A DNA stretch of 53,646 nucleotides, from IMG/VR virus record IMGVR_UViG_3300046707_000046, positions 1 through 53,646 of that record. The stretch is one strand, 5' to 3'. Origin of the DNA: a virus. Lineage: Duplodnaviria > Caudoviricetes. Made by a program: the position numbers and the translations under genes. Under the pieces are notes generated by a model, which did no database searches, was not told the origin of the DNA, and saw only the letters and a program-made list of their open reading frames with translations. This document shows, one piece after another, positions 4,457 through 50,242 of the stretch (the first letter of the stretch is position 1; each line of letters opens with the position of its first letter).

Positions 4457-4723
4457 ATGGCAGCACCAAGAGCGCTAGCCAAGAAAAAGGCCAACTCGGA
4501 GCCGAGACTCCGCAAGCCCGACGCCGGGCCTGGTCGCTTCTCTGCCCGTACCCTTACCGATCCGCTTACGGGCATGGGGCTACGCAAGTCCAAGCTACGG
4601 GGCAGGCTGCACAGACTGGCCTGCCGGGTAGCGGCTAAGCCCCCCACCAAGAAGACGGCTGACGGCGATTTCAAGCATTACACGTACGCAACGCCGGGCA
4701 GCCTGAACGTCAGGGCACGCTGA
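4457..4723 (+). CDS. Small basic protein
   Basis: Abuts the upstream stop. Confidence 0.7.
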   Translation: MAAPRALAKKKANSEPRLRKPDAGPGRFSARTLTDPLTGMGLRKSKLRGRLHRLACRVAAKPPTKKTADGDFKHYTYATPGSLNVRAR

Positions 4724-4815
4724 TCTAGCAGACCGCTTGACACTCGTAACTAGCCCCTGTAGGTTACGAGTGTCGGGCAGCCCGCTAGAGCGGGAACCAA
4801 GATAGGAGCACCAAA

Positions 4816-5085
4816 ATGGACAAGACGACCGAGCAGGGAATCACGCCGACGCCGGCTACCAACACCTTCGGCCACGCCTACGGCGACTGGGTGCAGACCG
4901 ACACGGCAGCCGACTCGCTGGATGAGTTTATCGCCGGGGCGCTGGGAATCCCGGCTGAGCACGTCGGCGTCATCGCCCTGGTCATGATCGACGCCGTAGA
5001 CCCCAGCGAGGTCTACATCCTCGGCAACGTTCCGGCCGAAGACATCCCGCTGGTACTCGCTCAGGGGCTGCTCATGACGACCTGA
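4816..5085 (+). CDS. Hypothetical acidic protein
   Basis: SD AGGAG. Confidence 0.8.
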   Translation: MDKTTEQGITPTPATNTFGHAYGDWVQTDTAADSLDEFIAGALGIPAEHVGVIALVMIDAVDPSEVYILGNVPAEDIPLVLAQGLLMTT

Positions 5086-5175
5086 CGGACCTAGTTGGCC
5101 AGGGCCTAGCCTCCCTGGCCTTCTAAGCCCTGCCAGACCGATCAAGAGCAGGTAGCCAAGAGAGAGGGCATCAAG

Positions 5176-5592
5176 ATGCCAGAGAACAACGAGCTTGCCG
5201 GCAAGATCAGGGAGTACACCACCCGTGCGATGGCCACCCCTGGCCAGATCGTGGAGGAAAACTCCCTGCCGATCGCCGACGTGCTGCCGTCAGCGGCGAT
5301 GCTGCTCGGCCAGGAGCCGGATGAGCTTGATGGCTTCCTGATCATCGGCTTCCGCAAGGACGGGTCAACCCTGATGGGCGGGAACGTGGACCCGATCGGG
5401 ACCGCCGCGCTGCTGATCGAACTGGGACTTTCGATGGACCCGGAGCTTATGAGCCGGGTGCAGGGAGATGTCATGAAGTCCCTGTTCGGCAGCATGCTGG
5501 GCGACCTTGGCCCGTGTGACGACCCGACGTGTTCCGTCTGCCACGCGGACACCGCAGACGATCAGGGCGAGACGGTCACCCCGGCCAGCTAG
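5176..5592 (+). CDS. Hypothetical acidic protein with C-terminal CDDPTCSVCH motif
   Basis: SD GAGAGGG; GC3 bias. Confidence 0.8.
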   Translation: MPENNELAGKIREYTTRAMATPGQIVEENSLPIADVLPSAAMLLGQEPDELDGFLIIGFRKDGSTLMGGNVDPIGTAALLIELGLSMDPELMSRVQGDVMKSLFGSMLGDLGPCDDPTCSVCHADTADDQGETVTPAS

Positions 5593-5683
5593 ACCGGCCA
5601 GGTGGGCTAAGGGCTTAAGATCGGTCCTTAGCTCGCCTAGCCTGGCTAGACCAGGAAGGGTAAAAGGGAGAGGCAGACAGGCA

Positions 5684-6361
5684 ATGGAACCCATTCAATT
5701 TGAGGCTTGGCAGAAAATCGGCCGCTACCGGCGCAACTCGGTGGTATCCGAGAAGATCGACGGCATGAACGCCGCTGTTGGTGTCGTGGAGATCGAGCGC
5801 AGCCCCAACGGGGCGCTGCCGTTCGGCTGGGATCGCCAGCCTGCTACCCTGATCGTGACGGGGAACGGTGCGGAGACCCGCACCTTCCTGGTCTACGCTC
5901 AGTCTCGCACCAGGATCATCACCCCCGAGGCCGACAACTTCGGCTTTGCCAGGTGGGCCTACGAGAATGCGGAGACCCTGGCCGCTGACCTCGGGCCGGG
6001 CCTGCACTTCGGGGAATGGTGGGGACACGGCATCCAGCGGGGTTACGGCCAGACCGCTAAGCGGCTTAGCCTGTTCAACACGAGCAGGTGGGCCGGCAAC
6101 GAGTTCGTCACTCCGAACCTGGGCGTTGTCCCGGTCATCGGGCACGGCGCACTCTGTGACGAGCTTGTGGAAGGCAGTATCGGCCTGCTTCGCAAGCACG
6201 GATCGGTGGCCGCACCGGGGTTCATGAACCCGGAGGGCATCGTCATCTTCCACCTTGCGACGCACCACTGTTACAAGGTCACCATTGCCGGCGACGATTC
6301 GCCCAAGTCGCTCGGCCAGCACGCGGATAAGCCCAAGTTCCGCCTCGTGGACAGTGCCTAG
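5684..6361 (+). CDS. RNA ligase (Rnl2-like nucleotidyltransferase, phage type)
   Basis: Motif I EKIDG.N, QSR.R.ITP..DN.GFA.W, HFGEWWG.GIQR.Y, PEGIV. Confidence 0.85.
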   Translation: MEPIQFEAWQKIGRYRRNSVVSEKIDGMNAAVGVVEIERSPNGALPFGWDRQPATLIVTGNGAETRTFLVYAQSRTRIITPEADNFGFARWAYENAETLAADLGPGLHFGEWWGHGIQRGYGQTAKRLSLFNTSRWAGNEFVTPNLGVVPVIGHGALCDELVEGSIGLLRKHGSVAAPGFMNPEGIVIFHLATHHCYKVTIAGDDSPKSLGQHADKPKFRLVDSA

Positions 6362-6548
6362 TCTCGGCGGTAACGTCCGCTTCCCGATCACCCGGTATGT
6401 AGTCGAAAGCCGGGACGGGGACACGGGCGAGCCCTGCGAGACCTACGATGAGGCCCGTACGGTGGCATCCGACGAGGGCGGCCGGGTGCTGGGACTGGTC
6501 TACATCTTCAGTCACACGGAAGTAGTTGACGACTTCACCCGTCACTAG
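6354..6548 (+). CDS. Hypothetical protein
   Basis: GTG overlapping the ligase stop. Confidence 0.6.
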   Translation: MPSLGGNVRFPITRYVVESRDGDTGEPCETYDEARTVASDEGGRVLGLVYIFSHTEVVDDFTRH

Positions 6549-6641
6549 GTAGGATGATTCTCCTGGGAGTCAGCTTAGTCCCCAGGAGAGTCACCCCAGC
6601 TAGAAGGGGTAAAATCGAACAAAAAACTACAGGGAGTAATC

Positions 6642-6782
6642 ATGGAAAGAACGCACGCGGAGCTTGATGCCGAGCTAGTGACACGTCGTGTCAGCCGGGA
6701 GTGCGACACCGGTCAGTCACATAGGACCGGGCGAGGGTTGGACTGCGAGAACACGATGTGCCAGTGCTGGTGTCACGAGTAG
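6642..6782 (+). CDS. Small Zn-binding protein (C...H...CENTMCQCWCH)
   Basis: SD AGGGAG; 46 aa. Confidence 0.65.
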   Translation: MERTHAELDAELVTRRVSRECDTGQSHRTGRGLDCENTMCQCWCHE

Positions 6783-6793
6783 GGGTCAAAACG

Positions 6794-6892
6794 ATGCCTA
6801 GTTGGTGGGTGTGCTTAAGATGCGGACACAGGAACAAGCACAGCATGGAGGTCTGCACGAACTGTGGTCAGCCCCCGAATGCAGGTGCATAG
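6794..6892 (+). CDS. 32-aa RanBP2-type zinc-finger microprotein
   Basis: MPSWWVCLRCGHRNKHSMEVCTNCGQPPNAGA fits W-x-C-x2-C-x3-N-x6-C-x2-C; SD-like AGGGG. Confidence 0.65.
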   Translation: MPSWWVCLRCGHRNKHSMEVCTNCGQPPNAGA

Positions 6893-7089
6893 GACAGGAC
6901 GGACGACCGAAGGTGCGATACTACAGTCGGGAAGACGCCAGGATGGCCCGTAAGGCGATGAGAGGGCGGGGGGCATACCCAGGTCACCCCCTGAGAGCCT
7001 ACCGCTGCCCTGGCCATCCTGGGCTGTTCCACATAACATCCAACACAACCGATTCGGTTACCTGGTACAGAGAGAGAGGGTTGTCATGA
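6820..7089 (+). CDS. Small Zn-finger-like protein (KVRY.S...A...LRAYRCP....FHITS); start uncertain
   Basis: Motif common in actinophage small proteins. Confidence 0.6.
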   Translation: MRTQEQAQHGGLHELWSAPECRCIGQDGRPKVRYYSREDARMARKAMRGRGAYPGHPLRAYRCPGHPGLFHITSNTTDSVTWYRERGLS

Positions 7090-7346
7090 CCGCTGAGTAC
7101 GTATACCGCGTTACCTCGGAGCCCCCGCCAGGGGGAACCGCGCATCGCACTCGAAGGCTTAAGCGGACGCTTAAGACCCGGAACGCCATCGTCCAGATTC
7201 TGGCGGCCAATGAGAAGTACGGCCCGGAGTCAGCTACTAGCTGGCGACGGCCCCGGCTTGATCGCCGGGAGGTTATCACCATCGAGCGGGCACTAGTTAC
7301 CGGGTGGGAAGTAATCGACCCGAGCCAGCTTAAGGAGAGGCCATGA
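7086..7346 (+). CDS. Hypothetical protein
   Basis: ATGA coupling, SD GAGAGGG. Confidence 0.7.
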   Translation: MTAEYVYRVTSEPPPGGTAHRTRRLKRTLKTRNAIVQILAANEKYGPESATSWRRPRLDRREVITIERALVTGWEVIDPSQLKERP

Positions 7347-7828
7347 AGTACACCGAGATAGCGCCGGACTACTTCGACATGGAGCCTAAGCTCCCTGCCC
7401 TTAGGCTAAGGGCGATCCTGCGGCCCTACCGGACTATCCGGTCGCTACAGCGGGCCAACTGCAATCAGGTCAGGATGCTGGATGACCAGAGGCGCACCGT
7501 TGCGGGTTACCGTCGCAACTTCGACACGGCGGTCAAGACAATGCGAGACTCCGAGCTAAGGGTATCCGAGCTTGGGGCTGAGCTACAGGCAGAACGCCAG
7601 GCAACCGAAGACCTGGCCGCGCACGCGGCCGGGATGCGGGAGCAAATCTGCAACCAGAAGGCCATCATCAAGCTACTGCACGCTAACGACGGGGAGGGCT
7701 ATTCGGCCGGTCTTCATCAGGGCCACCATGACGCCATGAACGACATGCTCGGCCCTTGTCCCGAGTGCGGATCATCAGCCCCGTTGTGGCCACACGACGG
7801 GGATTGCCCAAATAGCAGGAGAGGCTAG
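7343..7828 (+). CDS. Coiled-coil protein with C-terminal CPEC...H..DC
   Basis: SD AAGGAG; heptad-rich middle. Confidence 0.75.
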   Translation: MKYTEIAPDYFDMEPKLPALRLRAILRPYRTIRSLQRANCNQVRMLDDQRRTVAGYRRNFDTAVKTMRDSELRVSELGAELQAERQATEDLAAHAAGMREQICNQKAIIKLLHANDGEGYSAGLHQGHHDAMNDMLGPCPECGSSAPLWPHDGDCPNSRRG

Positions 7829-7831
7829 GCC

Positions 7832-8173
7832 ATGAACCGAAAGATCACGGCAGCAGTAGCTGCTACCGTTCTGCTGATTGCAGGGTGCGGTACGGTTACC
7901 GCCAGCCCTGCCCACGCAACCATCACGAGCAGACCGCCAGCCGTAACGTGCCAGGGATCGGCGGTCACCCAGTACACGGCAACCGGGCACTGGTCGATGC
8001 ACACGTTCCTGCGGCGGCATCACAGCGACGTGTCAACCATGCTCGACTACACCATTCACTGTGCCAGGGGCTGGCCTCCCGGCTTCGCTGCCTACCTGAA
8101 CAAGCAGAACTGGCGGCTGTTCGTGCCCGCCGGCGTGAAGTTCTGGGATATACAGCCGCCGCCATCGTCCTAA
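7832..8173 (+). CDS. Putative lipoprotein, possibly with a degenerate LysM-like domain
   Basis: Signal peptide with lipobox LIAGC. Confidence 0.65.
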   Translation: MNRKITAAVAATVLLIAGCGTVTASPAHATITSRPPAVTCQGSAVTQYTATGHWSMHTFLRRHHSDVSTMLDYTIHCARGWPPGFAAYLNKQNWRLFVPAGVKFWDIQPPPSS

Positions 8174-8263
8174 CAGATTTAGCCGGCCCCGTCTGGTATT
8201 GACGGGGCTGGCCATGTCGGCTAGGATAAAGGCAACCAAGCAAGCGAAAGGGGAGTATGGACG

Positions 8264-8467
8264 ATGAGGGAGATAACGCGGGAGACCTTCCGCGATGACA
8301 AAGACCCGGAAGGCAACTGGCGGGAAGGCACCGCTAAGGCTCAAGCCGAGCTTACCCGTAAGATCGTGATGGCAAGAGCCAAAAGGCAGTTCGAGAAGGG
8401 CACCTTCAAGGTGCAGGTCAAGCGCATGTCACCACACGTGTATGCGGTCATCCTCTGGGAAAAGTGA
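8264..8467 (+). CDS. Hypothetical protein
   Basis: SD GGGGAG. Confidence 0.7.
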   Translation: MREITRETFRDDKDPEGNWREGTAKAQAELTRKIVMARAKRQFEKGTFKVQVKRMSPHVYAVILWEK

Positions 8468-8477
8468 GGTAAGCCAG

Positions 8478-8756
8478 ATGGTGCTTAAGAAGATCAAGGG
8501 CCGCTACGCAAGCGGCGGGGTCTACAAGGGCGGCGAGATTGATCCGGTCAAGGTCAACACCGAAATCGCCAAGCAGCAAAAGAAGCACGACCAGGACGTG
8601 CAGAAGCGTGCCATGAAGGAAGCTGCGGCTAAGGGTGACGAGGTTATCGCCCTGGCCAGGAAGCACCACCCAGGCGACGCTAAGGCACTCGCCGGGGCCA
8701 AGAAGATCAAGGCCGGCATGATCAGGCAGGCCAAGAGAAACAACCCGATCAAGTAA
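8478..8756 (+). CDS. Lys/Ala-rich basic protein
   Basis: SD GAGGT; MVLKKIKG... Confidence 0.7.
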   Translation: MVLKKIKGRYASGGVYKGGEIDPVKVNTEIAKQQKKHDQDVQKRAMKEAAAKGDEVIALARKHHPGDAKALAGAKKIKAGMIRQAKRNNPIK

Positions 8757-8917
8757 TGGGCTGGCCTAAGGGCAAGAAGCGTCCCAAGGGATTCGGGGCG
8801 ACGGTGAGCAAGGGCCTGAAGCAGTGTAAGTGCAGCGTCCTGGCACTTCCCTGCCGGCTTTGCAGGCATTGCGCCAAGAATCGCGGGCGCGGGTGCTTGT
8901 GCAAGGGTGACAAGTAA
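8756..8917 (+). CDS. Small basic Cys-rich protein (53 aa)
   Basis: TAATG coupling; MGWPKGKKRPK...CKC...CRLCRHC...CLC. Confidence 0.6.
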   Translation: MGWPKGKKRPKGFGATVSKGLKQCKCSVLALPCRLCRHCAKNRGRGCLCKGDK

Positions 8918-8924
8918 GAGAGAC

Positions 8925-8958
8925 AGGCCCCCGCCCTAACCCGGCGGGGGTCTTTTTT
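8925..8958 (+). terminator. Intrinsic terminator at the convergence of the two arms
   Basis: AGGCCCCCGCC-loop-GGCGGGGGTCT followed by a T-run. Confidence 0.85.
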
Positions 8959-8964
8959 GCGTTG

Positions 8965-9044
8965 TGGAGCAGTCCGGGATCGAACCGGAATCCGTAAGGC
9001 CCAGCCTAAGCCAGACCTTACGTCGAAAACCAGCATTCTGCCCC
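8965..9044 (-). ncRNA. Mini-tmRNA: tRNA-like domain only, no tag ORF or pseudoknots
   Basis: GGGGCAG AATGCTGGTTTTCGA CGTAAGGTCTGGC TTAG GCTGGGCCTTACG GAT TCCGG TTCGATC CCGGA CTGCTCC A: Ala acceptor stem with G3:U70, stemless D-loop ending TTCGA, helix 2a, GA(T) linker, T arm. Confidence 0.85.
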
Positions 9045-9238
9045 TACTCGATACTCAGGCCATCCTTGGAGCACCAGGCACATTCCAGGTAGACATAAAC
9101 CACCTTTCGTGAGCCCTTAAACGGCTTGTCGCTGACGCGACGGTGGCTCATCAGACCCGCGTCGATATAGCGGGTCTTCCTACGCCGCTCCATTGGCTTG
9201 TGCGTCCCGTCTGGCGATTTTGAGCAACTTCCTCTCAC
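9044..9238 (-). CDS. Small basic Zn-ribbon protein
   Basis: C.KSPDG.H ... ECAWC. Confidence 0.6.
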   Translation of the reverse strand: MRGSCSKSPDGTHKPMERRRKTRYIDAGLMSHRRVSDKPFKGSRKVVYVYLECAWCSKDGLSIE

Positions 9239-9590
9239 GGGGGCATTCCTCCTTCGGAAACTGATGGCACGTGCATCCTACCGAGTAATTTACACCATCC
9301 CCGCTGATAAGGCAAGCGTTCCCGTAGCCTACCGGAGCGTACGACGTATAGCCCGGATCGACCATCGGCCAGGCGATGTCAAGGTAATCTTGTGCTGCCG
9401 CTGTTCCTAGCGGCCAGTAAGCGGCCTTGTCCGCATGGAAAGGAATGGTGTTGAAAGTAAAGGCAGGTATCCCGGTAGCAGTAAGTACCGAATCCACGGC
9501 GCTCTGAAATTCGGATAGGAAAGAGGACTTTGCAGGCAGCCCGTTAGGCTGCAAACTGATTATTTTTTTGGGACGCCGCTTACGGCTCAA
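9180..9590 (-). CDS. Hypothetical protein with C-terminal CTCH...C
   Basis: ORF in operon; overlaps the sigma gene stop. Confidence 0.55.
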   Translation of the reverse strand: MSRKRRPKKIISLQPNGLPAKSSFLSEFQSAVDSVLTATGIPAFTFNTIPFHADKAAYWPLGTAAAQDYLDIAWPMVDPGYTSYAPVGYGNACLISGDGVNYSVGCTCHQFPKEECPRERKLLKIARRDAQANGAA

Positions 9591-10351
9591 TTTAGCCCCC
9601 TGAGTGCCCGTTGCCGGGATATGCTGGGCTGGCCAGCTACACCCGACACCGGGTTGGTCCCGACACGATCCGTCCGACCCCCAACCGGGGCGGTCTGGTA
9701 TTCCATGTCACGGCGACGCCAGGGGTTATCCCCGCCAAGCTCCCGCTGAAGGGAACGTACCGCCTTGTGAACCCTGATCTTCAGGGCGTTAAGCGTAAGC
9801 CCCATCGAGCTAGCAATCTGGTTGCGGGTAAACCGGGAGTCGGAGTCATCACCCTGCGGAGCAGCGTAGTACGTCTCGATAACCGCCCGCTCGTGCCTCT
9901 TGATCTTCCCCATCGCCAGGCTGATGTCAGTCATCATCGCCAGGTAGTCCCCAGACTCGCTGAGAAGCCCGCTGCGGCCCCGGACCCTGCCCTTGGGTGG
10001 TTCGGCTACCACCCCGCCGTCCAGGTACGCAGGGAGCAGCAGGCGAAGGAGGCCCATCGTATAGAACTGCTCGTCATCGACCGCGTAGCCTTCGGCCGCC
10101 GCCTTCTCGGCCCGCTGCTGCCGCTCGTCATCCTTGCAGGCCCGCCAGCCAGCCCGGCGTACGGCGTTGAAAAGGATGTCAAGCTGGCCTTCGGCAAGCA
10201 GCCCCTCAAGGTTCTCAGCCTGGGTCAGGGCACCGGCCCACATTTCCTGGGCGAGGTCTTCGGTTCCGATACGGCTGTAGCCACGGTGCAACTGCGTGGC
10301 TATCCGGGGAATGACCGAGCTAAGGTGCTCGGTAAGAGCAGGGCTAAGCAT
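9587..10351 (-). CDS. Phage sigma-factor-like protein
   Basis: Region 2-like EDLAQEMW, region 4 HTH (QIASSMGLTLNALKIRVHKAVRSL), C-terminal LGG.NPW as in actinophage sigma-like proteins. Confidence 0.8.
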   Translation of the reverse strand: MLSPALTEHLSSVIPRIATQLHRGYSRIGTEDLAQEMWAGALTQAENLEGLLAEGQLDILFNAVRRAGWRACKDDERQQRAEKAAAEGYAVDDEQFYTMGLLRLLLPAYLDGGVVAEPPKGRVRGRSGLLSESGDYLAMMTDISLAMGKIKRHERAVIETYYAAPQGDDSDSRFTRNQIASSMGLTLNALKIRVHKAVRSLQRELGGDNPWRRRDMEYQTAPVGGRTDRVGTNPVSGVAGQPSISRQRALRGLN

Positions 10352-10718
10352 CTGTACCACCCCCGGGATAGCGCAGGGCCGGGGCTTCATCCGGGTTGGG
10401 CAGTTCCGCGTGCTCCATGCCGACGATAAGCCAGTTGAAGGTAGCAGTCTTAAGCTCCCAGTCACCGTCAGCCTGGACCCATTCAGGACTGCCGTCTTCT
10501 ATGGGTTCGCCTTCGGGACCGGCGAACATGGTAAACTCGGCCCATGCCAGGTCGGTTGCGCACAGATGAATGTTGGCCTCGGAAACCGTGTTGACCTGGT
10601 TGCCCGTGCGGGCATTCCTGATCCTGAATCCCCAGCCCGGAATTGCGTTGCTGGTCTTGACATCAGGCCAGATCAGTATTGCCTCGCCTGTGAATTCCTC
10701 TGGTCTTACCTTGGACAT
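10344..10718 (-). CDS. Hypothetical protein
   Basis: SD AAGGA; coupled to the sigma gene. Confidence 0.7.
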   Translation of the reverse strand: MSKVRPEEFTGEAILIWPDVKTSNAIPGWGFRIRNARTGNQVNTVSEANIHLCATDLAWAEFTMFAGPEGEPIEDGSPEWVQADGDWELKTATFNWLIVGMEHAELPNPDEAPALRYPGGGTDA

Positions 10719-10748
10719 CGCCTTAATTCCTTTCAGTCGGTAATTTTT

Positions 10749-11420
10749 TTAGAGCCCGGCAGCCCGGCGAACTTCGGCAGGGCCATGCTGCAAGTAGGTA
10801 TCCGTAGCGTCCTTGCATGCGAGGGTAATGATCTCGGCTGTGTCGATATCCTTAGCCAGGCGCTTAGCAAGCTCAAGTCCTGGCCGTCGCCCGGTATTCG
10901 CATCGGGCTCGTCATTGTCCCTGAAGATCAGCACGCGCTTGTAACCCCGGAACATCAGCGACCATTCCGGGTGCTTGTGCCAGGTATCAACACCCGGGAT
11001 GCCTACCGAGGGGATGCCGCACAGTGACGTAAGGATCATGGCGTCAAACTCGCCTTCGCAGATGCCCACGTACCCCGCATGGTCCGCTCGCTCAAGGGCA
11101 AGGGTGTTATAGAGCCTGCTTTCCCCGGCTGCCTGAAGATACCTTGAGTGCTTGCAGGAAGGTTCGCAGTTGTGCGGCTGCCTGACCTTGATAGCACACA
11201 CCCCGCCCCGGAGGGTCAGGTACGGAATGGATATCATGCCGGCATAGTCAGCATAACCGCTGACGCTATCTGTTACCATGCCAAGCTTGTACTCGACCAC
11301 CATGTCCGTTGTTACCCCGCGTCCATGCAGGTAGCTTACTACGGGGGACGTAATCGCCTGGTGAAAAGTCTCCGTAGCTGTGTCCAGTGATCTCCTGAAC
11401 TCGTCGCTTAGCCTCAGCAA
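10749..11420 (-). CDS. DNA primase, TOPRIM part
   Basis: YLHGRG, ISIPYLT, ICEGEFDA, VGIPG, DNDE..G. Confidence 0.9.
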   Translation of the reverse strand: MLRLSDEFRRSLDTATETFHQAITSPVVSYLHGRGVTTDMVVEYKLGMVTDSVSGYADYAGMISIPYLTLRGGVCAIKVRQPHNCEPSCKHSRYLQAAGESRLYNTLALERADHAGYVGICEGEFDAMILTSLCGIPSVGIPGVDTWHKHPEWSLMFRGYKRVLIFRDNDEPDANTGRRPGLELAKRLAKDIDTAEIITLACKDATDTYLQHGPAEVRRAAGL

Positions 11421-11667
11421 AGCCGACTCCCTCCGCGAATTGAACTACCGAGTAGGCATCTCCTGCTAGCGGGTCACCGTGCTCATTGCAGCAGACAAAG
11501 CACTTGAAGGCCCCTTCCTCTATGTTGACCGAGGCGCTAGCCCGCCTGTCGTCATGGAAAGCGCACCGTACGGGCCGCCAGCCCCCCCATCCGGGGAGGC
11601 CAGCGAACCCGTAGTGCTCCAAGACCGGAGCTATCGGCGGCTTAGAGGTACTGTCCGAAATGTCCAT
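11266..11667 (-). CDS. DNA primase, CHC2 zinc-finger part
   Basis: VLEHYG...CAFHDDRRASASVN...FKCFVC...GDAY. Confidence 0.85.
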   Translation of the reverse strand: MDISDSTSKPPIAPVLEHYGFAGLPGWGGWRPVRCAFHDDRRASASVNIEEGAFKCFVCCNEHGDPLAGDAYSVVQFAEGVGFAEAKRRVQEITGHSYGDFSPGDYVPRSKLPAWTRGNNGHGGRVQAWHGNR

Positions 11668-12121
11668 CGTCTTCAGACTTGCCCTCGTCTTCCGCGTCTC
11701 CTGCTGATGCCTTAGCTGCTGCTGCTTGCATGCGCTGGCGTTGCAGCGAGGCCACGACGGCACGCAAGGCTGCCGTGCTGGCCGGGTCGGGACGCCTCGG
11801 GCCGGCTTCCCCGCCGAAGACGGGAGAGGCGGGCATGCTCTGTGCAGCACGACCAGCGGCGGCGTGCTTGTGCAGTTGCATGGCACCCTCGGGCTCGGCC
11901 CTCAGGTTAGCCAGAATCACCTTGAACAGGTAACGGATCATCACGAGCCCGCCATAGGCGGCCAGCCCTGTTCCGATGGTCCCGGAGGGCAGCGGTACAG
12001 CTAGCCCGATCAGGGCAACCATGACCACGATCTGGATAGCCTCGGCTACCATGAAGACGACCGGGAACGCGGATAGCTTGAGCCCTATGCTGACGTACTT
12101 CTTAACCTTCTTGATGTTCAT
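11642..12121 (-). CDS. Membrane protein
   Basis: Two hydrophobic segments; SD GGAGG. Confidence 0.7.
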   Translation of the reverse strand: MNIKKVKKYVSIGLKLSAFPVVFMVAEAIQIVVMVALIGLAVPLPSGTIGTGLAAYGGLVMIRYLFKVILANLRAEPEGAMQLHKHAAAGRAAQSMPASPVFGGEAGPRRPDPASTAALRAVVASLQRQRMQAAAAKASAGDAEDEGKSEDDGHFGQYL

Positions 12122-12493
12122 CTATCTATCTCCCTCCGATGAAGACCAGGAAGCATAGGCTGCCGCCAGGTCGTCATCATCATCCTGCGGGGGTTCTGGC
12201 TGGGCAACCCTCGGGTCAGCCAGGTAGGTAAAGATGTCGTTGTAGTTCAGGGGCTGGCCGTTGGCCACGCGGGCTCCCTCGAAGCGCCAGCTCCGCTTAC
12301 TGCCATCCTTGCTGGCGATCAAGTCCCACCTGGCAAAGAAGGGAAGGGCGTCACCATCTCCCGGCCTGTTGTACCTTACCACGAGGCTAGTATGCCGGTG
12401 ATCCCACCCGAGACGTTCGGCTTCATCAAGAAGCTTGCGAATCCTGGGAGGAACCGGGGCATCTAGCTCCGAGGTAAGCTCGTCGGGAGTCAT
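12122..12493 (-). CDS. Hypothetical protein
   Basis: Operon-embedded ORF. Confidence 0.7.
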   Translation of the reverse strand: MTPDELTSELDAPVPPRIRKLLDEAERLGWDHRHTSLVVRYNRPGDGDALPFFARWDLIASKDGSKRSWRFEGARVANGQPLNYNDIFTYLADPRVAQPEPPQDDDDDLAAAYASWSSSEGDR

Positions 12494-12495
12494 GG

Positions 12496-12618
12496 TTACT
12501 TCTTGAACATCTCTACTATCTTCTCGGCAGCCAGGCCGAGAAGGAAGGCGATCAGGAGGTAACCCACCGGCAGGTGGATGTGCAGGTGAGTAGTTGCGAC
12601 AGCGGCGTAGGTGTGCAT
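12496..12618 (-). CDS. Small membrane peptide (40 aa)
   Basis: TAATG coupling; YLLIAFLLGLAA. Confidence 0.55.
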   Translation of the reverse strand: MHTYAAVATTHLHIHLPVGYLLIAFLLGLAAEKIVEMFKK

Positions 12619-12989
12619 TACTTGCTCCTAGGGATCATGACCTGCCCGTTGCTTGGATCAAAAGGACGCCCCTTAGCTCCCCCTTGGGCACGCCTGGCCG
12701 GGACGGTCATGCCGCCCCATACCCCGTAGGGTTCATCCCAGCCGTACTCAAGACACTGAAACCTGACCGGGCATGAACCGCACACCCGCATCTGCTGCTC
12801 GTACTTCCGCAAGCCCCGGCCGGGGATCATGAGGTCGTACCCGTGCTCTGCCAGCACATCAGGCTGAGCGCAAGCCGCCGAAGCCATCCAGCCTGGCAGC
12901 GGGTACAGGAATTCCATGTCCACAATCGGGACTCTCGGACGGGGAGCCATGCCGGCTTCCTCCTGATCGCAGGGCACCTGGTCTCTCAT
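12618..12989 (-). CDS. whiB: WhiB-family transcription factor
   Basis: W...AAC...C.SCPVR.QCLEYG....YGVWGG. Confidence 0.9.
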   Translation of the reverse strand: MRDQVPCDQEEAGMAPRPRVPIVDMEFLYPLPGWMASAACAQPDVLAEHGYDLMIPGRGLRKYEQQMRVCGSCPVRFQCLEYGWDEPYGVWGGMTVPARRAQGGAKGRPFDPSNGQVMIPRSK

Positions 12990-12991
12990 GC

Positions 12992-13699
12992 CTAAGAAGC
13001 TACCAGCGGATTCCAGCCCTTGTCAAGAGCCATTCTCACCTGAAGCCCGATGAACTCCCCGAAGATGGGAGGCACCGCCTCTGAGCAGCCAGCTTCCGTC
13101 ATCCACGGCGTGCCCATCAGGGCGTTCCTCACGTCCACAGGAACGCCGTAACCGTGCTTCTTGTAGAACCACCCTGGTACACCATGACCCAGCACTGGCA
13201 TGGCAGCGCGCTTGTGGGCCTCGTGCAGGGGCACCCAGATGGGCATGTTGGACTCGAACAGGCGACGACGGTACAACGCGAAGTCCGTACCCTGGTACTC
13301 GATGTGCATGTCGAACATGCAACCGCATAGCTCAACGGGATCACGGAGCCTAGCTCCGGGCACGTTCTCGATGACGTAGGGCTTGCCCGTGCGCCTGAGT
13401 GCGTACTGGACTCCGGGCACAAGGTTAGGGTGCTTGTGCTTGTTGACCTTGACGACCGCCTGGCTGGCATGCTGGCAGGGCGGGCTGGCAATAATAAGGT
13501 CAGCATCATTCCCAAACTTCTTGAGCCCTTCCTGCCAGTCCATCTGATGCCCCTCGAAGGAATCAGGGTAGCGCTTCAGGGCAGACTCCGACGTGTCAAT
13601 CCCTATCACACGCCGGAACCCCGCCCGGAAGTACCCGAGTGAGAGGGCACCCTGACCGCAGAACAGGTCAAGCACCGTTAGCTGGTCGTTAGTCTTCAC
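12992..13699 (-). CDS. DNA cytosine-5 methyltransferase-like (short phage type)
   Basis: LDLFCG.G, ASPPCQ, YVIENVPGA, CGCMF, EAVPP. Confidence 0.85.
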   Translation of the reverse strand: MKTNDQLTVLDLFCGQGALSLGYFRAGFRRVIGIDTSESALKRYPDSFEGHQMDWQEGLKKFGNDADLIIASPPCQHASQAVVKVNKHKHPNLVPGVQYALRRTGKPYVIENVPGARLRDPVELCGCMFDMHIEYQGTDFALYRRRLFESNMPIWVPLHEAHKRAAMPVLGHGVPGWFYKKHGYGVPVDVRNALMGTPWMTEAGCSEAVPPIFGEFIGLQVRMALDKGWNPLVAS

Positions 13700-13712
13700 C
13701 TTAACCTGCCCC

Positions 13713-13950
13713 TTAGACTATGTGGACGTAATGGCCCCTGCCGAGCCATCTGCGCCCGCCGTTCTCGTAACTCCCGTAGTGCTGGCGTATCTGAAACGGG
13801 GCACCGCTGGCCGTGCGGGCGGGCGTTGATACGGGATACGGTCAGGCCGTGATGATCCTTGACCGCGTTCTTAACGGCACTCAGGAGGGTGACCATCTCC
13901 TGAAGATCGGCTACCGACAGGCCCTTACTAGGGTTGATCTGGGTACCCAT
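13713..13950 (-). pseudogene. Small gene frameshifted by the 4-bp duplication GCCC-GCCC (13817-13824)
   Basis: After INAR the annotated frame switches to rare codons (TTA, CGA, CTA), while the +1 frame reads TASGAPFQIRQHYGSYENGGRRWLGRGHYVHIV* with normal GC3. Confidence 0.55.
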
Positions 13951-14021
13951 ACCTTTTCATCTCCCGTTTTTGTGGTAACCACAGTGTTCAGCACCCCTCC
14001 AGGCCGAGGAAGATGTGATTG

Positions 14022-14050
14022 ATCAGATGCCGTGGCTTGGTGGTTGTCAA
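14022..14050 (-). promoter_or_regulatory. Possible internal promoter
   Basis: TTGACA-N17-TCTGAT in an intergenic gap. Confidence 0.35.
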
Positions 14051-14097
14051 GGTTAATCCCTTCCCTTGTTGGTTACGTTGCTTAGTTTAGCACGCCG

Positions 14098-14448
14098 CTA
14101 GGCGGCGGGCCACCTCTCCCACTGGCCGTTTCGCCTTACCTCTATCAGGAGGTTAGCCGGGTCAAGACTGCGCTCCACCCTCTCGGAGGGGTCAGGGGGC
14201 ACGTCAAGAACCCTCTTGTTAAGCCATATCCTGAACTTCGGGGTCTCTGACATGCGTCGGAAGGCCGCCCTCTTGTTCTCTAGCTGAGAGCGGCTATCCC
14301 GTGCCTCGCCTACCGCCCCGGACTCAGGGTGAATGATACGTACCCCGGTGTCCCTCTTGTTCTGGTTTGACCCGCCCTTGCCCCCGGCACGGAAGGTTTG
14401 CACGATGCAATCCTTGATCGTGACCGAGAACAAGCGCGTCCGTGGCAT
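14098..14448 (-). CDS. Peptide chain release factor (RF-1 domain, ArfB/PrfH-like) with GGQ replaced by GGS
   Basis: FRAGGKGGSNQNKRDTGVRIIH..SG......SRSQLENKRAAF. Confidence 0.9.
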   Translation of the reverse strand: MPRTRLFSVTIKDCIVQTFRAGGKGGSNQNKRDTGVRIIHPESGAVGEARDSRSQLENKRAAFRRMSETPKFRIWLNKRVLDVPPDPSERVERSLDPANLLIEVRRNGQWERWPAA

Positions 14449-14454
14449 GGCTGG

Positions 14455-14634
14455 TTACTTCTCCTTCTTGGCGGGGCACTTGCTCTTTCCGCAGCGGTGC
14501 GGGCCGGCGTGATCCTCATCCTGTCCGCAGCGGTGCAGCGTGCCCTTGTCTTTGAGGCCGTACTTGTGGCCCGTCCGGGGATACACCCGCCCGTCGAACC
14601 ACCTGAAATTACAGTTCTTTGTACCGAATGACAT
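14455..14634 (-). CDS. Small Cys/His-rich protein
   Basis: MSFGTKNC...HRC...H.G.HRC. Confidence 0.55.
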   Translation of the reverse strand: MSFGTKNCNFRWFDGRVYPRTGHKYGLKDKGTLHRCGQDEDHAGPHRCGKSKCPAKKEK

Positions 14635-14635
14635 C

Positions 14636-14986
14636 TTAGACGCACCCTCCGCTCTTGATGTACCTGATGGCACCCTCAAGAATCTCCACAGCATGGTCCT
14701 TGCCCTTACTGGACTCCCTGCATATCCAGCCTAGCAGGTGCAGGTTGCACTTCTTGCATAGTAGGCCCCGCCAGCAGACCTTGCAACCCCTCTGGCAATG
14801 GTCGTGATCGTGATCAAATGCGAAGTTTGTCTTGCCGTGAGGTGAGCGGCAGATCGCGCAGCATCCACCTTGCTTAGCTAGCTGCCGGTCGTAGTCTTCC
14901 TGGGTGATGCCGTGACGAGCCAGGGTAGCACGACGGGAAGCCGCCCGTCTCTTAGCAGCGGCTTCCCTCTGAATCCTAGTCGGCAC
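14636..14986 (-). CDS. Recombination endonuclease VII
   Basis: HGIT..DY......QGG.CAIC.......DHDH.....RGLLC..CN. Confidence 0.9.
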   Translation of the reverse strand: MPTRIQREAAAKRRAASRRATLARHGITQEDYDRQLAKQGGCCAICRSPHGKTNFAFDHDHDHCQRGCKVCWRGLLCKKCNLHLLGWICRESSKGKDHAVEILEGAIRYIKSGGCV

Positions 14987-15920
14987 CGAGGACCGATCCT
15001 CCCGTCTTGTGCGGGCAATCGCACTCACCTGGCAGGTTGTTCTGCCGGCAGGCCCAGTGCAGGAAGTCCCGGCGGGCAGCCAGGAGCTTCCATGACCTGG
15101 CATAGTCCGGGCTTGCCTGGATCATGTCGTTAAGCTTGTTAGCTTCCAGGCAGGAGCCGCAAAGTGTCATCGCTTTATCCAGTTGTCGCCAGGAATCGGA
15201 CCTCGGATGTTGCGCCCGGCTATGTCCCTCGGGTAGTGCGTCCTGATGCACAGCACGCAAGCTATCCTGATGTGCCGCGTGAACGAGCGGTACGTGGTAT
15301 CGAAGGTCTTACCGCAAAGTTCACACTTGCCGCTGCTGCTCATGGCCGGTTAGCCCTCCGGGATAGCCGGGCCTGACGGTTCTTAGCCCGGCGCTTAGCT
15401 ATGACAGCCTTCGGAACGGTTCCCTCATAGAGGGGCCGACCGAGCAGCCCGTTGTCAACCGACCGGCTGAGGATAAAGAGCATCCCCACCGCTGCTGGCA
15501 GGTCTGCCAGGGCTAGGACGGCCTCGGCAGACGGCCCGGCGTCCTGCGGCATCTCTTGCATCTTTCACCTCCTGAGCACACCAGGAGCTTGCCGTCCATC
15601 TTGTAGGTGTGAGGGTTGAACTTCTTGTGCTCGCACTTGGCGACACGACCCCTGCCCTTGCAGTCAGGGCACTTGATGCCCGCTGGGGTAAGGCCCATCT
15701 GGGGTACCTCCTTCTTTCATCTACCCCCCACGGTAGCCGGCGCGGGGGTTCCCGTCAAGCCCTAGTTAGCACGGATTGCCTCTACGCGGGGGCACTTCCT
15801 GCACTCCCGGTAGATAGCTACTATCCCGTTACGCTTGATAGTCCGCTTGCGCCAGGAGTGACGACAGGTCTCGCGCGTGGGGCCATCTCCACGTCCTGAG
15901 CATATCTTCGGCGTGAGCAT
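14976..15920 (-). other. Cluster of about five small Cys-rich hypothetical ORFs
   Basis: Tightly coupled short ORFs with CxxC motifs (e.g. 15166-15343, 15340-15561, 15513-15698). Confidence 0.55.
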
Positions 15921-49493: not shown

Positions 49494-49515
49494 TGCTGTC
49501 CATTCGTCAGGAGGG

Positions 49516-49588
49516 CTCCGGTTGCTGGGCTCGAACCAGCGACCCTCCGCTTAACGGGCGGACGCTCTGCCGACTGAGCTAAACCGGA
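49516..49588 (-). tRNA. tRNA-Asn(GTT), C at position 33
   Basis: Cloverleaf TCCGGTT/AACCGGA, loop CCGTTAA, TTCGAGC, G73. Confidence 0.9.
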
Positions 49589-49646
49589 CTGTTTTGCAAA
49601 GGCTTTCACTAGTCTCAGGATGACACCTACCCTTGCGGAGACCTCG

Positions 49647-49719
49647 CTCCCCCGGGTGGACTCGAACCACCAGTCTCCGGTTCCAGAGACCGGCGGCCTG
49701 CCAATTGGCCTACGGGGGA
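49647..49719 (-). tRNA. tRNA-Gln(CTG)
   Basis: TCCCCCG/CGGGGGA, loop CTCTGGA, TTCGAGT. Confidence 0.92.
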
Positions 49720-49786
49720 AACGATCTTTATGCAGTCTTGCTGGGCCGAGGGTAAAACTGAACCATGCCAGATATCACCCCCGCCG

Positions 49787-49860
49787 TGGAGCCGGCAGGA
49801 CTTGAACCTGCGACCGACTGGTTGCAAACCAGTTGCACTATCCAACTGTGCTACGGCCCC
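49787..49860 (-). tRNA. tRNA-Ala(TGC)
   Basis: GGGGCCG/CGGCTCC with G3:U70, loop TTTGCAA. Confidence 0.95.
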
Positions 49861-49883
49861 ATATGGGTAAGCAAATAAGCAGC

Positions 49884-50062
49884 GGGCGAGGGGATTAATA
49901 GAATAGCACCGGCTGGCCTCGCCGGTGCCTAATCGGGTGCCCCTTCATTTGGTCCTGCCGGACATCAGCCGTCAGGCCCGCCTTAATTGGGGAGGGTGAC
50001 CAGACTTTCACTGGCTTATGCAAGGTCCACGGCCTTGCGCTTCGTTTACTTCCGCCTCGCCC
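49884..50062 (-). ncRNA. Unknown structured RNA between tRNA-fMet and tRNA-Ala
   Basis: Terminal stem GGGCGAGG/CCTCGCCC enclosing hairpins GCAAGG/CCTTGC, GCCAG/CTGGT and GCACCGGC/GCCGGTGC. Confidence 0.55.
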
Positions 50063-50066
50063 TCAG

Positions 50067-50140
50067 TAGCGGTGGTGGGATTTGAACCCACGGCCTACGG
50101 GTTATGAGCCCGCCGAGCTACCGAACTGCTCCACACCGCG
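50067..50140 (-). tRNA. Initiator tRNA-fMet(CAT)
   Basis: C1:U72 mismatch, GGG/CCC anticodon stem, loop CTCATAA. Confidence 0.93.
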
Positions 50141-50171
50141 TCGTTTTCATTCTTCGTAATACCTAACTAAG

Positions 50172-50242
50172 AGCCCGACACCGGACTCGAACCGATATAG
50201 CCAGCTTGGAAGGCTGGCGTCCTGCCATTGAACGAGTCGGGC
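50172..50242 (-). tRNA. tRNA-Gly(TCC)
   Basis: GCCCGAC/GTCGGGC, loop CTTCCAA, U73. Confidence 0.93.

What the first reader, a model, noticed from the sequence alone, without database searches (positions are those of the whole stretch)
5684..14448. Candidate phage ribosome-rescue / translation-repair system: mini-tmRNA + GGS release factor + RNA ligase + tRNAs
A tmRNA without a tag ORF supplies no stop codon, so it would leave peptidyl-Ala-RNA in the P site needing a codon-independent hydrolase. The same leftward transcription block encodes an ArfB-like factor that could do this. The genome also carries an Rnl2-like ligase (tRNA repair) and five tRNAs including fMet and Ala. This is an unusually large translation kit for a 53-kb phage. 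The parts are seen in the sequence; their functional coupling, for example to counter host mRNA/tRNA-cleaving toxins without proteolytic tagging of phage proteins, is inference.
Basis: inference. Interest (0 to 1): 0.82.

Follow-up and report, generated by a model that had tools for sequence, protein, structure and literature searches.

The report
Phage mini-tmRNA and release-factor kit
A soil phage carries a tag-less copy of the bacterial ribosome-rescue RNA, a bare release-factor domain with an altered catalytic motif, an RNA ligase and five tRNAs; all are real, but other phages suggest they are separate add-ons, not one machine.

Summary
All four parts exist. The mini-tmRNA lies at 8962-9044 (-): Rfam tmRNA, 48.7 bits, tRNA-like domain only, G3:U70, no tag frame. 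A 116-aa RF-1-domain protein at 14098-14448 (-) reads GGS where relatives read GGQ. A PF09414 RNA ligase lies at 5684-6361 (+). Five tRNAs lie at 49.5-50.2 kb, outside the given coordinates.

The proposed coupling, a tag-less tmRNA that needs the phage's own hydrolase, is not borne out.
- Only 1 of 51 other mini-tmRNA-bearing phage records has an RF-1 gene.
- The one complete true relative (terminase 71% identical) keeps a mini-tmRNA-like RNA and the ligase but has no RF-1 gene.
- Of 81 RF-1-bearing records, 16 carry full-length tmRNAs and 6 carry minis. ARAGORN read a tag with a stop codon in 12 of the 18 full-length phage tmRNAs checked.
- No phage record encodes SmpB (0 of 47).

Best reading: these are independent modules of the known actinophage translation and repair kit. 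The mini-tmRNA is a DS6A-type, alanine-chargeable competitor for host SmpB and stalled ribosomes.

GGS is a rare natural variant: 3 of the top 120 homologues. One contig from a run of another study also shows it.

Earlier notes of this scan report the same combination on other phage DNA, with the same verdict.

The parts
5684..6361 (+). RNA ligase (adenylyltransferase domain, 225 aa; KxDG motif EKIDG). Divergent: not shown to be Rnl2 proper.
   Evidence: PF09414 30.4 bits against cut-off 27. PHROG 548 'RNA ligase' E 8.7e-21. No NCBIfam match and no PDB sequence match. An orthologue 48% identical is present in relative G131.
8925..8953 (.). Hairpin terminator between the convergent rightward and leftward gene blocks, 8 nt downstream of the mini-tmRNA.
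   Evidence: 11-pair stem followed by TTTTTGCGTT on the + strand. The same hairpin is read on the - strand just after 8962. No promoter-like site in 8300-9700 (0 found).
8962..9044 (-). Mini-tmRNA: tRNA-like domain only (7-bp acceptor stem with G3:U70, tmRNA-type D-loop region UGGUUUUCGAC, 13-bp P2 hairpin with UUAG loop, T arm, A73). No resume codon, tag frame or pseudoknots. CCA is not encoded.
   Evidence: Rfam RF00023 48.7 bits, E 5.8e-17. Fold z -4.0. Sequence read. Same build as 70 other phage minis.
14098..14448 (-). Stand-alone release-factor catalytic domain (RF-1 domain, 116 aa) with GGS in place of GGQ. No codon-reading domains and no basic ArfB-type tail.
   Evidence: PF00472 E 7.8e-13. 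Homologues 50-65% identical in actinophages. GGS in 3 of the top 120, GGQ in 117. AlphaFold2 pLDDT 86.8. Nearest solved relatives are domain 3 of RF1/RF2.
49514..50242 (-). Cluster of five tRNA genes: Asn(GUU) 49514-49588, Gln(CUG) 49646-49719, Ala(UGC) 49786-49860, Met(CAU, initiator-like) 50066-50140, Gly(UCC) 50171-50242.
   Evidence: ARAGORN. Rfam RF00005 at 56.6-70.3 bits.

Best explanation
The window is a complete 53.6-kb genome with direct terminal repeats, from a soil phage that is probably an actinophage. It carries four separable translation-related modules, not one two-step machine.

(1) Mini-tmRNA. It is a DS6A-type, CDS-less tmRNA. Inferred: it is transcribed at the 3' end of the leftward operon, cut out and given CCA like a tRNA, charged with alanine by host AlaRS (G3:U70, A73), and bound by host SmpB, since the phage has none. 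It then competes with host tmRNA for SmpB and for stalled ribosomes. Nascent chains therefore escape the degradation tag and get at most one alanine. The dead-end complex is resolved by host routes such as ArfB, or drop-off plus Pth.

(2) The 116-aa protein. It belongs to a phage family of bare release-factor catalytic domains that travels with tRNA arrays, tmRNAs and RNA ligases. Inferred: it releases peptides from stalled ribosomes independently of codons. Here it reads GGS, so its activity is probably weakened or altered.

(3) and (4) The ligase and the five tRNAs. They fit the known phage counter-measures against host nucleases that cut tRNA or mRNA.

Shown: the parts, their family membership and the co-occurrence pattern. 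Inferred: every biochemical step.
For: The parts are real.

The mini belongs to a large family. Across 71 unique sequences the acceptor stem and T stem are canonical in 71 of 71 at every pair. Three to five pair types occur at acceptor pairs 4-7. G3:U70 is present in 71 of 71; G3 was never demanded by a search pattern.

DS6A has the same 83-nt form. Its form is reported to inhibit endogenous tmRNA in E. coli (PMC11915505 passage; PMC4131195 passage citing Mao 2009).

No SmpB gene is present: 0 of 1 in the own genome and 0 of 46 other phage records.

Independence of the modules:
- RF-1 genes occur in 1 of 51 mini-bearing records: DS6A 0 of 1, 0 of 11, 1 of 38, relative G131 0 of 1.
- Among those at least 90% complete, or complete genomes, the count is 1 of 16.
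- G131 (terminase 71% identical) has a mini-like RNA and the ligase but no RF-1 gene.
- Of 81 RF-1 records, 16 have full tmRNAs, 6 have minis and 59 have neither.
- ARAGORN finds tags ending in a stop codon in 12 of 18 full-length phage tmRNAs.
- No conserved same-strand neighbour of the RF-1 gene: the next cluster occurs in 10 of 85 loci.

Literature: RF-1, Pth and tmRNA genes in mycobacterial and phage tRNA arrays (PMC5966550 passages). Phage tRNAs plus RNA ligases plus peptidyl-tRNA hydrolases as counter-defence (PMC7824862 passages).
Against: RF-1 carriers are far richer in tmRNA-type genes than chance would give: 22 of 81, and 18 of the 31 complete ones. IMG/VR holds 2.9 million contigs, with 249 RF-1 relatives and at least 120 pattern hits. 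A functional link between rescue RNA and hydrolase is therefore not excluded, and I ran no lineage- or size-matched control.

Six RF-1 records do carry minis. In one of them (G019) the mini lies 5.5 kb downstream of the RF-1 gene on the same strand, as in the window.

Many records are fragments, and several RF-1 proviruses are near-copies of each other.

The invariant G3:U70 argues that charging matters. A pure SmpB sponge would not need it: per PMC4131195, inhibition was seen 'whether or not chargeable'.

No expression, charging or SmpB-binding data exist for this RNA. The host is unknown.
Confidence: 0.6

Rival explanations
1. One reading: a two-step tag-free rescue pathway. Ala-mini-tmRNA with host SmpB takes the nascent chain on a non-stop ribosome. 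Because there is no tag frame or stop codon, the phage's GGS release-factor domain hydrolyses peptidyl-Ala-RNA independently of codons. The ligase and tRNAs repair or replace cleaved tRNAs.
For: Both genes lie on the - strand 5 kb apart, with no promoter-like site near the mini. G3:U70 is invariant in the mini family, so entry into the ribosome as an alanyl-RNA is plausible. Six of 81 RF-1 records also carry minis, G019 with the same spacing and order. The analogous problem is discussed for CDS-less mitochondrial tmRNAs (PMC11915505 passage).
Against: RF-1 genes occur in only 1 of 51 mini-bearing records. The only complete relative has the mini-like RNA without RF-1. RF-1 genes go more often with full-length tmRNAs (16 records against 6), and ARAGORN read a stop codon in 12 of the 18 full-length phage tmRNAs checked. 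The protein has no ArfB-type tail to sense an empty mRNA channel: ArfB model 18.1 bits against cut-off 100, and residues 69-116 have a net charge of about +2 (read). Its catalytic Gln is replaced. GGQ mutations are described as lowering efficiency or relaxing nucleophile choice (PMC9589212 passage).
Confidence: 0.15
2. A double shut-off of host ribosome rescue. The mini-tmRNA only titrates SmpB. The GGS protein is a catalytically crippled A-site binder that blocks host rescue or release factors, so both act as inhibitors rather than rescuers.
For: A TLD-only RNA inhibits tmRNA in E. coli (PMC4131195 and PMC11915505 passages). GGQ changes are lethal in RF1/RF2 (PMC9589212 passage). A 'GGS-mutant' release factor was crystallised on the ribosome (title of PDB 9mtr only). 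GGS occurs in two further homologues about 60% identical to this one, with all other invariant residues kept.
Against: A phage needs working ribosomes, and jamming stalled ones gains it little. 117 of the 120 closest homologues and 81 of 81 IMG/VR relatives keep GGQ, so the family's normal job is probably catalytic. Invariant G3:U70 suggests that the mini is charged and used, not merely bound. The activity of GGS was not found in any paper I could read.
Confidence: 0.1
3. Relics. The mini-tmRNA is a decayed tmRNA or an attachment-site remnant, and the GGS gene is a dying release-factor fragment. Neither has a function.
For: The mini lacks the A-rich inner hairpin that most family members have and lacks encoded CCA. 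GGS removes the catalytic Gln. The RF-1 gene is missing from the nearest relative.
Against: The mini has perfect 7-bp acceptor and 5-bp T stems, near-consensus tmRNA D-loop and T-loop sequence and E 5.8e-17. Both halves of the tRNA-like domain are present, unlike an attP remnant, and no integrase was found among the ORFs scanned. The GGS protein is an intact ORF that keeps all 13 family-invariant residues and folds confidently. Both regions are covered by contigs from 4 of 4 other metagenome runs.
Confidence: 0.05

Closest known systems
CDS-less ('TLD only') tmRNA of Mycobacterium phage DS6A (JN698994, 28478-28560; Hudson, Lau and Williams 2014, PMC4131195; tmRNA database 2025, PMC11915505)
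   Same: 83 nt. Acceptor stem with G3:U70, tmRNA-type D-loop region, P2 closed by a short hairpin, T arm, A73, no encoded CCA, no tag frame. The phage also carries an RNA ligase (RtcB in DS6A) and no SmpB.
   Different: The sequence differs outside the conserved tmRNA blocks (pairwise alignment). The window's P2 is a plain 13-bp helix with a UUAG loop, while DS6A and most family members have an A-rich bulge plus a CCGCAYGCGG-type inner hairpin. DS6A has no RF-1-domain gene.
'RF-1 (domain) peptide chain release factor' of mycobacteriophages (e.g. Nanosmite gp140, ScottMcG gp204, WXIN) and of Mycobacterium tRNA array units (PMC5966550)
   Same: The same protein of about 115 aa, 50-62% identical over 93-95% of its length. 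It is found in phages with tRNAs, tmRNA and RNA ligases.
   Different: Those proteins read GGQ and the window reads GGS. Those phages mostly carry full-length, tag-encoding tmRNAs and many tRNAs in genomes of 78-160 kb. The window has a mini-tmRNA and 5 tRNAs in 53.6 kb.
ArfB (YaeJ) / ICT1 ribosome rescue factors
   Same: A release-factor catalytic domain without codon-reading domains, so codon-independent peptidyl-tRNA hydrolysis is the expected activity.
   Different: There is no linker plus basic C-terminal helix. The ArfB NCBIfam model scores 18.1 bits against a cut-off of 100. The family profile matches ArfB chains at only E 3e-4, against 1e-15 to 1e-17 for RF1/mtRF1 domain 3. Not a member.
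PrfH-RtcB rescue-and-repair pair of bacteria (PMC6514570 passages read; PMC9304027 seen only as a search listing)
   Same: A release-factor homologue occurs together with an RNA ligase: 17 of 31 complete RF-1 phage records have RtcB or a PF09414 ligase.
   Different: They are not operonic here: 7.7 kb apart on opposite strands. The PrfH model scores 43.2 bits against a cut-off of 166.65. The protein has no PrfH-type decoding domain. The ligase here is ATP-type, not RtcB.
CDS-less mitochondrial and plastid tmRNAs (Rfam RF02544; PMC11915505)
   Same: tmRNA reduced to the tRNA-like part, which works with an SmpB encoded elsewhere, leaving open how the ribosome is released.
   Different: Those are organellar and mostly permuted two-piece forms. 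This one is a one-piece phage gene.

Membership tests
Standard tmRNA (Rfam RF00023) | tRNA-like domain: paired 5' and 3' ends, G3:U70, T arm, tmRNA-type D-loop | tested here: met
   48.7 bits against gathering 47, E 5.8e-17. Structure and sequence read.
Standard tmRNA (Rfam RF00023) | mRNA-like domain with resume codon, tag reading frame and stop codon, plus pseudoknots | tested here: not met
   303 model positions are replaced by 9 nt. ARAGORN finds no tmRNA or tag. The whole RNA is 83 nt.
CDS-less / TLD-only tmRNA (DS6A type) | About 75-86 nt: acceptor stem with G3:U70, A73, UGGU..UCGAC region, P2 closed by a hairpin, T arm, no reading frame | tested here: met
   Same build as DS6A and as 70 other unique phage sequences. 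The window differs only in having a plain P2 hairpin.
CDS-less / TLD-only tmRNA (DS6A type) | Binds SmpB, is alanylated, and interferes with host trans-translation | not testable with these tools
   Literature statement for the DS6A form only. No RNA run holds this DNA.
ArfB (YaeJ) | GGQ catalytic domain | tested here: inconclusive
   The domain is present (PF00472) but the motif is GGS.
ArfB (YaeJ) | Flexible linker plus basic C-terminal helix that enters the empty mRNA channel; equivalog model score | tested here: not met
   NCBIfam NF006718 scores 18.1 bits against cut-off 100, matching residues 8-39 only. The C-terminal part is modelled as three short helices plus a beta-hairpin and is not basic (sequence).
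PrfH | Catalytic domain plus PrfH-type decoding domain; equivalog score; rtcB neighbour | tested here: not met
   TIGR03072 scores 43.2 bits against 166.65. The protein is only 116 aa. No RtcB gene lies beside it.
Phage stand-alone RF-1-domain proteins (PF00472 only, about 110-130 aa) | Single RF-1 domain of this length with the family's invariant residues | tested here: met
   1128 homologues at E<=1e-3. All 13 invariant columns of the 120-sequence alignment are kept in the window's protein.
Phage stand-alone RF-1-domain proteins (PF00472 only, about 110-130 aa) | GGQ motif | tested here: not met
   GGS here. GGQ in 117 of the top 120 homologues and in 81 of 81 IMG/VR relatives, though one of the three search patterns demanded GGQ.
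Rnl2-type RNA ligase | Nucleotidyltransferase domain with KxDG lysine; Pfam RNA_ligase | tested here: met
   PF09414 30.4 bits against 27. EKIDG is seen in the translation. PHROG 548.
Rnl2-type RNA ligase | Rnl2 C-terminal domain and closeness to characterised Rnl2 enzymes | tested here: inconclusive
   No PDB sequence match at E<=1 and no NCBIfam model. Only profile positions 4-91 of 171 are matched. PMC7824862 notes actinophage ligases outside Rnl1/Rnl2.

The most novel reading that the evidence does not exclude
In this phage, the Ala-charged mini-tmRNA and the GGS release-factor domain act in sequence as a tag-free rescue route. The RNA, with host SmpB, takes the nascent chain. The GGS domain then clears peptidyl-Ala-RNA from a ribosome that has no codon to read. 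Its Gln-to-Ser change may tune it to this unusual substrate, or to a nucleophile other than water. The six other phages with both genes would then use the same route with GGQ.
Probability: 0.12. Interest if true: 0.75.

Novelty: new variant of a known kind. Interest (0 to 1): 0.42.

Why it matters
Phages that meddle with ribosome rescue are little studied.

TLD-only tmRNAs turn out to be common in phage DNA, and standard finders miss them. ARAGORN called 0 of 9 here. The curated tmRNA database names one phage example, DS6A, and lists 9 standard-form tmRNAs without a CDS in all.

Knowing that the mini-tmRNA works without a phage-encoded release factor narrows its mechanism to an interplay with host SmpB, AlaRS and host release routes.

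The natural GGQ-to-GGS change, in an otherwise conserved release-factor domain, is a ready-made probe of what the catalytic glutamine does.

If the coupled pathway were real, it would be a new way to finish trans-translation without a stop codon. The same question is open for CDS-less organellar tmRNAs.

Tried and rejected
Searches that found nothing:
- Near and distant DNA searches of the 'phages' collection, with the region and with the mini, gave no match.
- Portal homologues in 'phages' are only 23-31% identical.
- The portal found nothing in 5 RF-1-bearing records of similar size, so those are not relatives of this phage.

A genome-contig scan with P0012 found only two GGQ relatives. Whether GGS goes with minis elsewhere is therefore untested.

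Tree of the 120 homologues: only the quick tree finished. It needs 2 changes for GGS, and a single origin is not excluded.

Expression: no RNA holder is listed for this DNA.

Read laying: the table of differing letters was cut off before 8962, so I could not read natural variants inside the mini or most of the RF-1 gene.

WhiB as a marker for an actinophage control set: only 1 homologue was found, so no lineage-matched baseline was made.

Papers:
- Searches for the activity of GGS release factors led nowhere. Most 'GGS' hits I opened were journal DOIs or software names.
- Mao 2009 and Shaw and Green 2007 are not held. I cite them only through PMC4131195 and PMC9589212.
- Apart from the DS6A form, I found no paper describing phage TLD-only tmRNAs as a family, or their relation to RF-1 genes.
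- Supplementary tables of PMC5966550 and PMC11915505 were not seen and may list more.

Ideas rejected:
- attP remnant: both halves of the tRNA-like domain are present, and no integrase was found among the ORFs scanned.
- A phage-encoded SmpB: none found.
- A conserved partner gene next to the RF-1 gene: none found.

Full report
WHAT IS THERE. The window is a whole virus record of 53,646 bases with direct terminal repeats, rated 100% complete. It has about 60% G+C.

In Rfam's permissive mode on 4500-15500, the tmRNA family RF00023 matches 8962-9044 on the minus strand. The score is 48.7 bits (gathering 47), E 5.8e-17. The match runs from model position 1 to 374, but 303 model positions are replaced by 9 nt. 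Only the tRNA-like domain (TLD) is present.

The RNA folds into a 7-bp acceptor stem, a 13-bp hairpin with a UUAG loop and a 5-bp T arm. The energy is -38.9 kcal/mol, z -4.0, and 0 of 200 shuffles are as stable. The sequence shows G3:U70 and discriminator A, followed by CAA rather than CCA. A hairpin terminator at 8925-8953 follows, shared with the converging rightward genes.

ARAGORN does not call this RNA. The default Rfam 'gathering' run over the whole window missed it as well.

The ORF at 14098-14448 (-) is a 116-aa RF-1-domain protein: PF00472, 48.8 bits against a cut-off of 35. It reads RAGGKGGSNQNK, with Ser encoded by TCA. TCA is two changes away from a Gln codon (my reading of the code).

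The ORF at 5684-6361 (+) is a 225-aa RNA ligase: PF09414 at 30.4 bits against 27, and PHROG 548 at E 8.7e-21, with an EKIDG motif.

Five tRNAs (Asn, Gln, Ala, initiator-like Met, Gly) lie at 49514-50242 (-), far outside the stated coordinates.

The tRNAs lie elsewhere. The ligase is on the other strand. 'ArfB-like' is true only of the architecture.

Contigs from 4 of 4 other soil or rhizosphere metagenome runs, all from different studies, cover the region. One contig of run X5 spans 13966-14420 with no difference, so the GGS codon is not an artefact of one assembly.

THE MINI-tmRNA HAS A KNOWN PRECEDENT AND A LARGE FAMILY. Hudson, Lau and Williams (PMC4131195, passages read) list mycobacteriophage DS6A as 'TLD only'. 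They note that a similar molecule strongly inhibits tmRNA, perhaps by titrating SmpB, citing Mao 2009, which I could not read. The 2025 tmRNA database paper (PMC11915505, passages read) repeats that the DS6A form inhibits endogenous tmRNA in E. coli. It counts 79 phage tmRNA sequences and only 9 'standard, no CDS' sequences in all.

I found the DS6A RNA at 28478-28560. It is also 83 nt and scores 43.2 bits.

Two exact-pattern scans of IMG/VR found many more.
- The first gave 22 stretches, about 8 of them clear minis.
These gave 60 unique sequences of 75-86 nt.

I pooled 71 unique sequences: the window, DS6A, 4 from the first scan, 5 from RF-1-bearing records and 60 from the second scan. Across these, all seven acceptor pairs and all five T-stem pairs are canonical in 71 of 71. 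Three to five pair types occur at acceptor positions 4-7, and up to six occur in P2.

G3:U70 is present in 71 of 71. The patterns forced U70 in 65 of these sequences, but G3 was never forced. In my script the 5' end of the 60 was chosen as the best-pairing offset among 14.

Most members carry an A-rich bulge and a small CCGCAYGCGG-type hairpin inside P2. The window's copy has a plain hairpin instead.

ARAGORN called 0 of 9 minis that I gave it.

THE RELEASE-FACTOR DOMAIN BELONGS TO A PHAGE FAMILY. tblastn found relatives in 252 phage records, 205 of them Mycobacterium phages annotated 'RF-1 peptide chain release factor'. The large protein collection holds 1128 homologues at E<=1e-3.

A profile of the top 120 matches domain 3 of RF1/mtRF1 at E 1e-15 to 2e-17. 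It matches PrfH at 1e-13, C12orf65 at 8e-8 and ArfB only at 3e-4. Foldseek on a confident model (pLDDT 86.8) gives the same ranking.

The NCBIfam ArfB model scores 18.1 bits against a cut-off of 100. The PrfH model scores 43.2 against 166.65. After the catalytic domain come three short helices and a beta-hairpin, not a basic tail. The protein is therefore not ArfB and not PrfH.

GGQ is kept in 117 of the top 120 homologues. GGS occurs in 3: this protein, P0012 and P0026. All 81 IMG/VR relatives read GGQ, though one of the three search patterns demanded it.

On a quick tree the two other GGS proteins are sisters and the window's protein sits elsewhere. A single origin is not excluded. The window's protein keeps all 13 family-invariant residues.

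What GGS does to catalysis I could not find. One paper summarises that GGQ mutations are lethal in RF1/RF2 and, in vitro, lower efficiency or admit other nucleophiles (PMC9589212 passage). A PDB entry title names a 'GGS-mutant' release factor on the ribosome (9mtr, title only).

THE CO-OCCURRENCE TEST.

Starting from minis, RF-1 genes were found in:
- 0 of 1 (DS6A);
- 0 of 11 records from the first pattern, and 0 of the 5 at least 90% complete;
- 1 of 38 records of 15 kb or more from the second pattern, and 1 of the 9 complete. I searched 38 of the 80 listed loci and left out the contigs under 15 kb.

Starting from RF-1 genes (81 IMG/VR records):
- 16 have a full-length tmRNA, 6 have an 82-84-nt mini, and 59 have neither.
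- Among the 31 at least 90% complete, the counts are 12, 6 and 13.
- Several of the proviruses with full tmRNAs are near-copies of each other.

ARAGORN read tag frames ending in a stop codon in 12 of the 18 full-length phage tmRNAs I gave it. Those phages do not lack a stop codon, yet they carry the RF-1 gene.

In named phages, Nanosmite and ScottMcG have RF-1 plus a full tmRNA, and WXIN has RF-1 alone.

The RF-1 gene has no conserved same-strand neighbour. The largest other cluster is seen in 10 of 85 loci.

No record encodes SmpB: 0 of 1 for the own genome and 0 of 46 others. Every phage tmRNA, long or short, must therefore use host SmpB.

THE NEAREST RELATIVE. The large terminase finds five IMG/VR relatives at 68-75% identity. 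Only one of them, G131 (56,119 bases), is complete.

G131 has an 84-nt TLD-only tmRNA-like RNA with G3:U70 and ACCA. It scores 40.6 bits, below the gathering score but the best family at that place. It lies beside tRNA-like genes upstream of the terminase. G131 also has a ligase orthologue 48% identical. It has no RF-1 gene.

Within this lineage, therefore, the small RNA and the ligase persist, and the release-factor domain is an extra.

THE LIGASE. RtcB or a PF09414 ligase is present in 17 of the 31 complete RF-1 records (RtcB in 11, PF09414 in 10). It is present in 4 of 14 complete mini-only records.

The window's ligase has no NCBIfam or PDB sequence match, so 'Rnl2-like' is not established. 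Iyer et al. (PMC7824862, passages) note actinophage ligases outside Rnl1/Rnl2.

In two related strains the ligase region is far more divergent than the rest of the region.

HOW IT MOST LIKELY WORKS. Shown: the parts, their families and their distribution. Everything that follows is inferred.

The mini is probably released from the end of the leftward transcript by tRNA-processing enzymes. It then receives CCA, is alanylated (invariant G3:U70 and A73) and binds host SmpB. It competes with host tmRNA, so stalled nascent chains are not tagged for degradation.

I cannot tell whether it acts mainly as an SmpB sponge or enters ribosomes and takes the chain. The strict conservation of the alanine identity pair favours entry.

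Because 50 of 51 other mini-bearing records lack an RF-1 gene, clearance of any peptidyl-Ala-RNA must normally rely on host routes.

The RF-1-domain protein is most simply a codon-independent peptidyl-tRNA hydrolase. It belongs to the kit of tRNAs, tmRNA, Pth and RNA ligases already described for mycobacterial tRNA arrays (PMC5966550 passages) and for large phages (PMC7824862). A Mycolicibacterium contig shows the RF-1 gene wedged between tRNAs, next to a full tmRNA and a GOLLD RNA.

Cooperation between the two parts in this phage remains possible. I put it at about 0.12-0.15.

NOVELTY AND LIMITS. Each part is of a known kind. The combination of RF-1, tmRNA and tRNAs is in print, and the TLD-only form is in print for DS6A.

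New here are the GGS variant, the pairing of a mini with the RF-1 domain in a small 53.6-kb genome, and the negative co-occurrence result.

Earlier notes of this scan report minis in many other genomes, and the same 'mini + GGQ factor + ligase' idea on other phages with the same verdict. I saw them after my own tests. They are not independent evidence.

Limits:
- There is no size- or lineage-matched control for the enrichment of tmRNA genes among RF-1 carriers.
- Many records are fragments.
- The host is unknown. Soil origin, WhiB and actinophage homologues suggest Actinomycetota.
- There are no expression data.
- The contexts of the other two GGS genes could not be read.

Noticed in passing
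IMG/VR loci L149-L225 (e.g. L155:1579-1657), also L011, L013, L014, L018, L020, L024, L026, L129-L143: TLD-only tmRNAs form a large phage RNA family. Most members share an A-rich bulge plus a small CCGCAYGCGG-type hairpin inside helix P2, whose role is unknown. The window's copy lacks it. Many copies sit inside tRNA arrays. ARAGORN calls none of them.
   Followed up: partly
window 1-53646 (Rfam runs): The default Rfam 'gathering' run on the whole window did not report the mini-tmRNA. The permissive run on 11 kb scored it 48.7 bits, above the family's gathering score of 47. Routine annotation would therefore miss it.
   Followed up: yes
L274:3800-10450 (Mycolicibacterium palauense contig): A tRNA array of about 20 tRNAs holds a full-length tmRNA (104.7 bits), a GOLLD RNA (162 bits) and a GGQ RF-1-domain gene squeezed between two tRNAs.
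   Followed up: no
L271:1322-1783 (relative G131): The mini-like RNA of the nearest relative lies between a tRNA-Met with a shortened acceptor match and a tRNA-like gene that ARAGORN reports with a 2-nt 'anticodon'. This is an odd little cluster of tRNA mimics just upstream of the terminase.
   Followed up: no
window 5724-6252: In contigs of runs X2 and X4 the RNA-ligase gene is much more divergent than its surroundings: 48 differing letters in 266, and several skipped stretches. From 7251 to 14500 the same contigs differ by 1-2%. The ligase may be a swapped cassette.
   Followed up: no
window 8920: Strains in runs X2 and X4 carry a 12-nt insertion just beyond the terminator that follows the mini-tmRNA. 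Run X3 has contig ends with a variant terminator sequence there.
   Followed up: no
window 10749-11886: The primase appears as two overlapping ORFs in different frames: a CHC2 zinc ribbon at 11266-11886 and a Toprim domain at 10749-11420. This may be a frameshift or a split gene.
   Followed up: no
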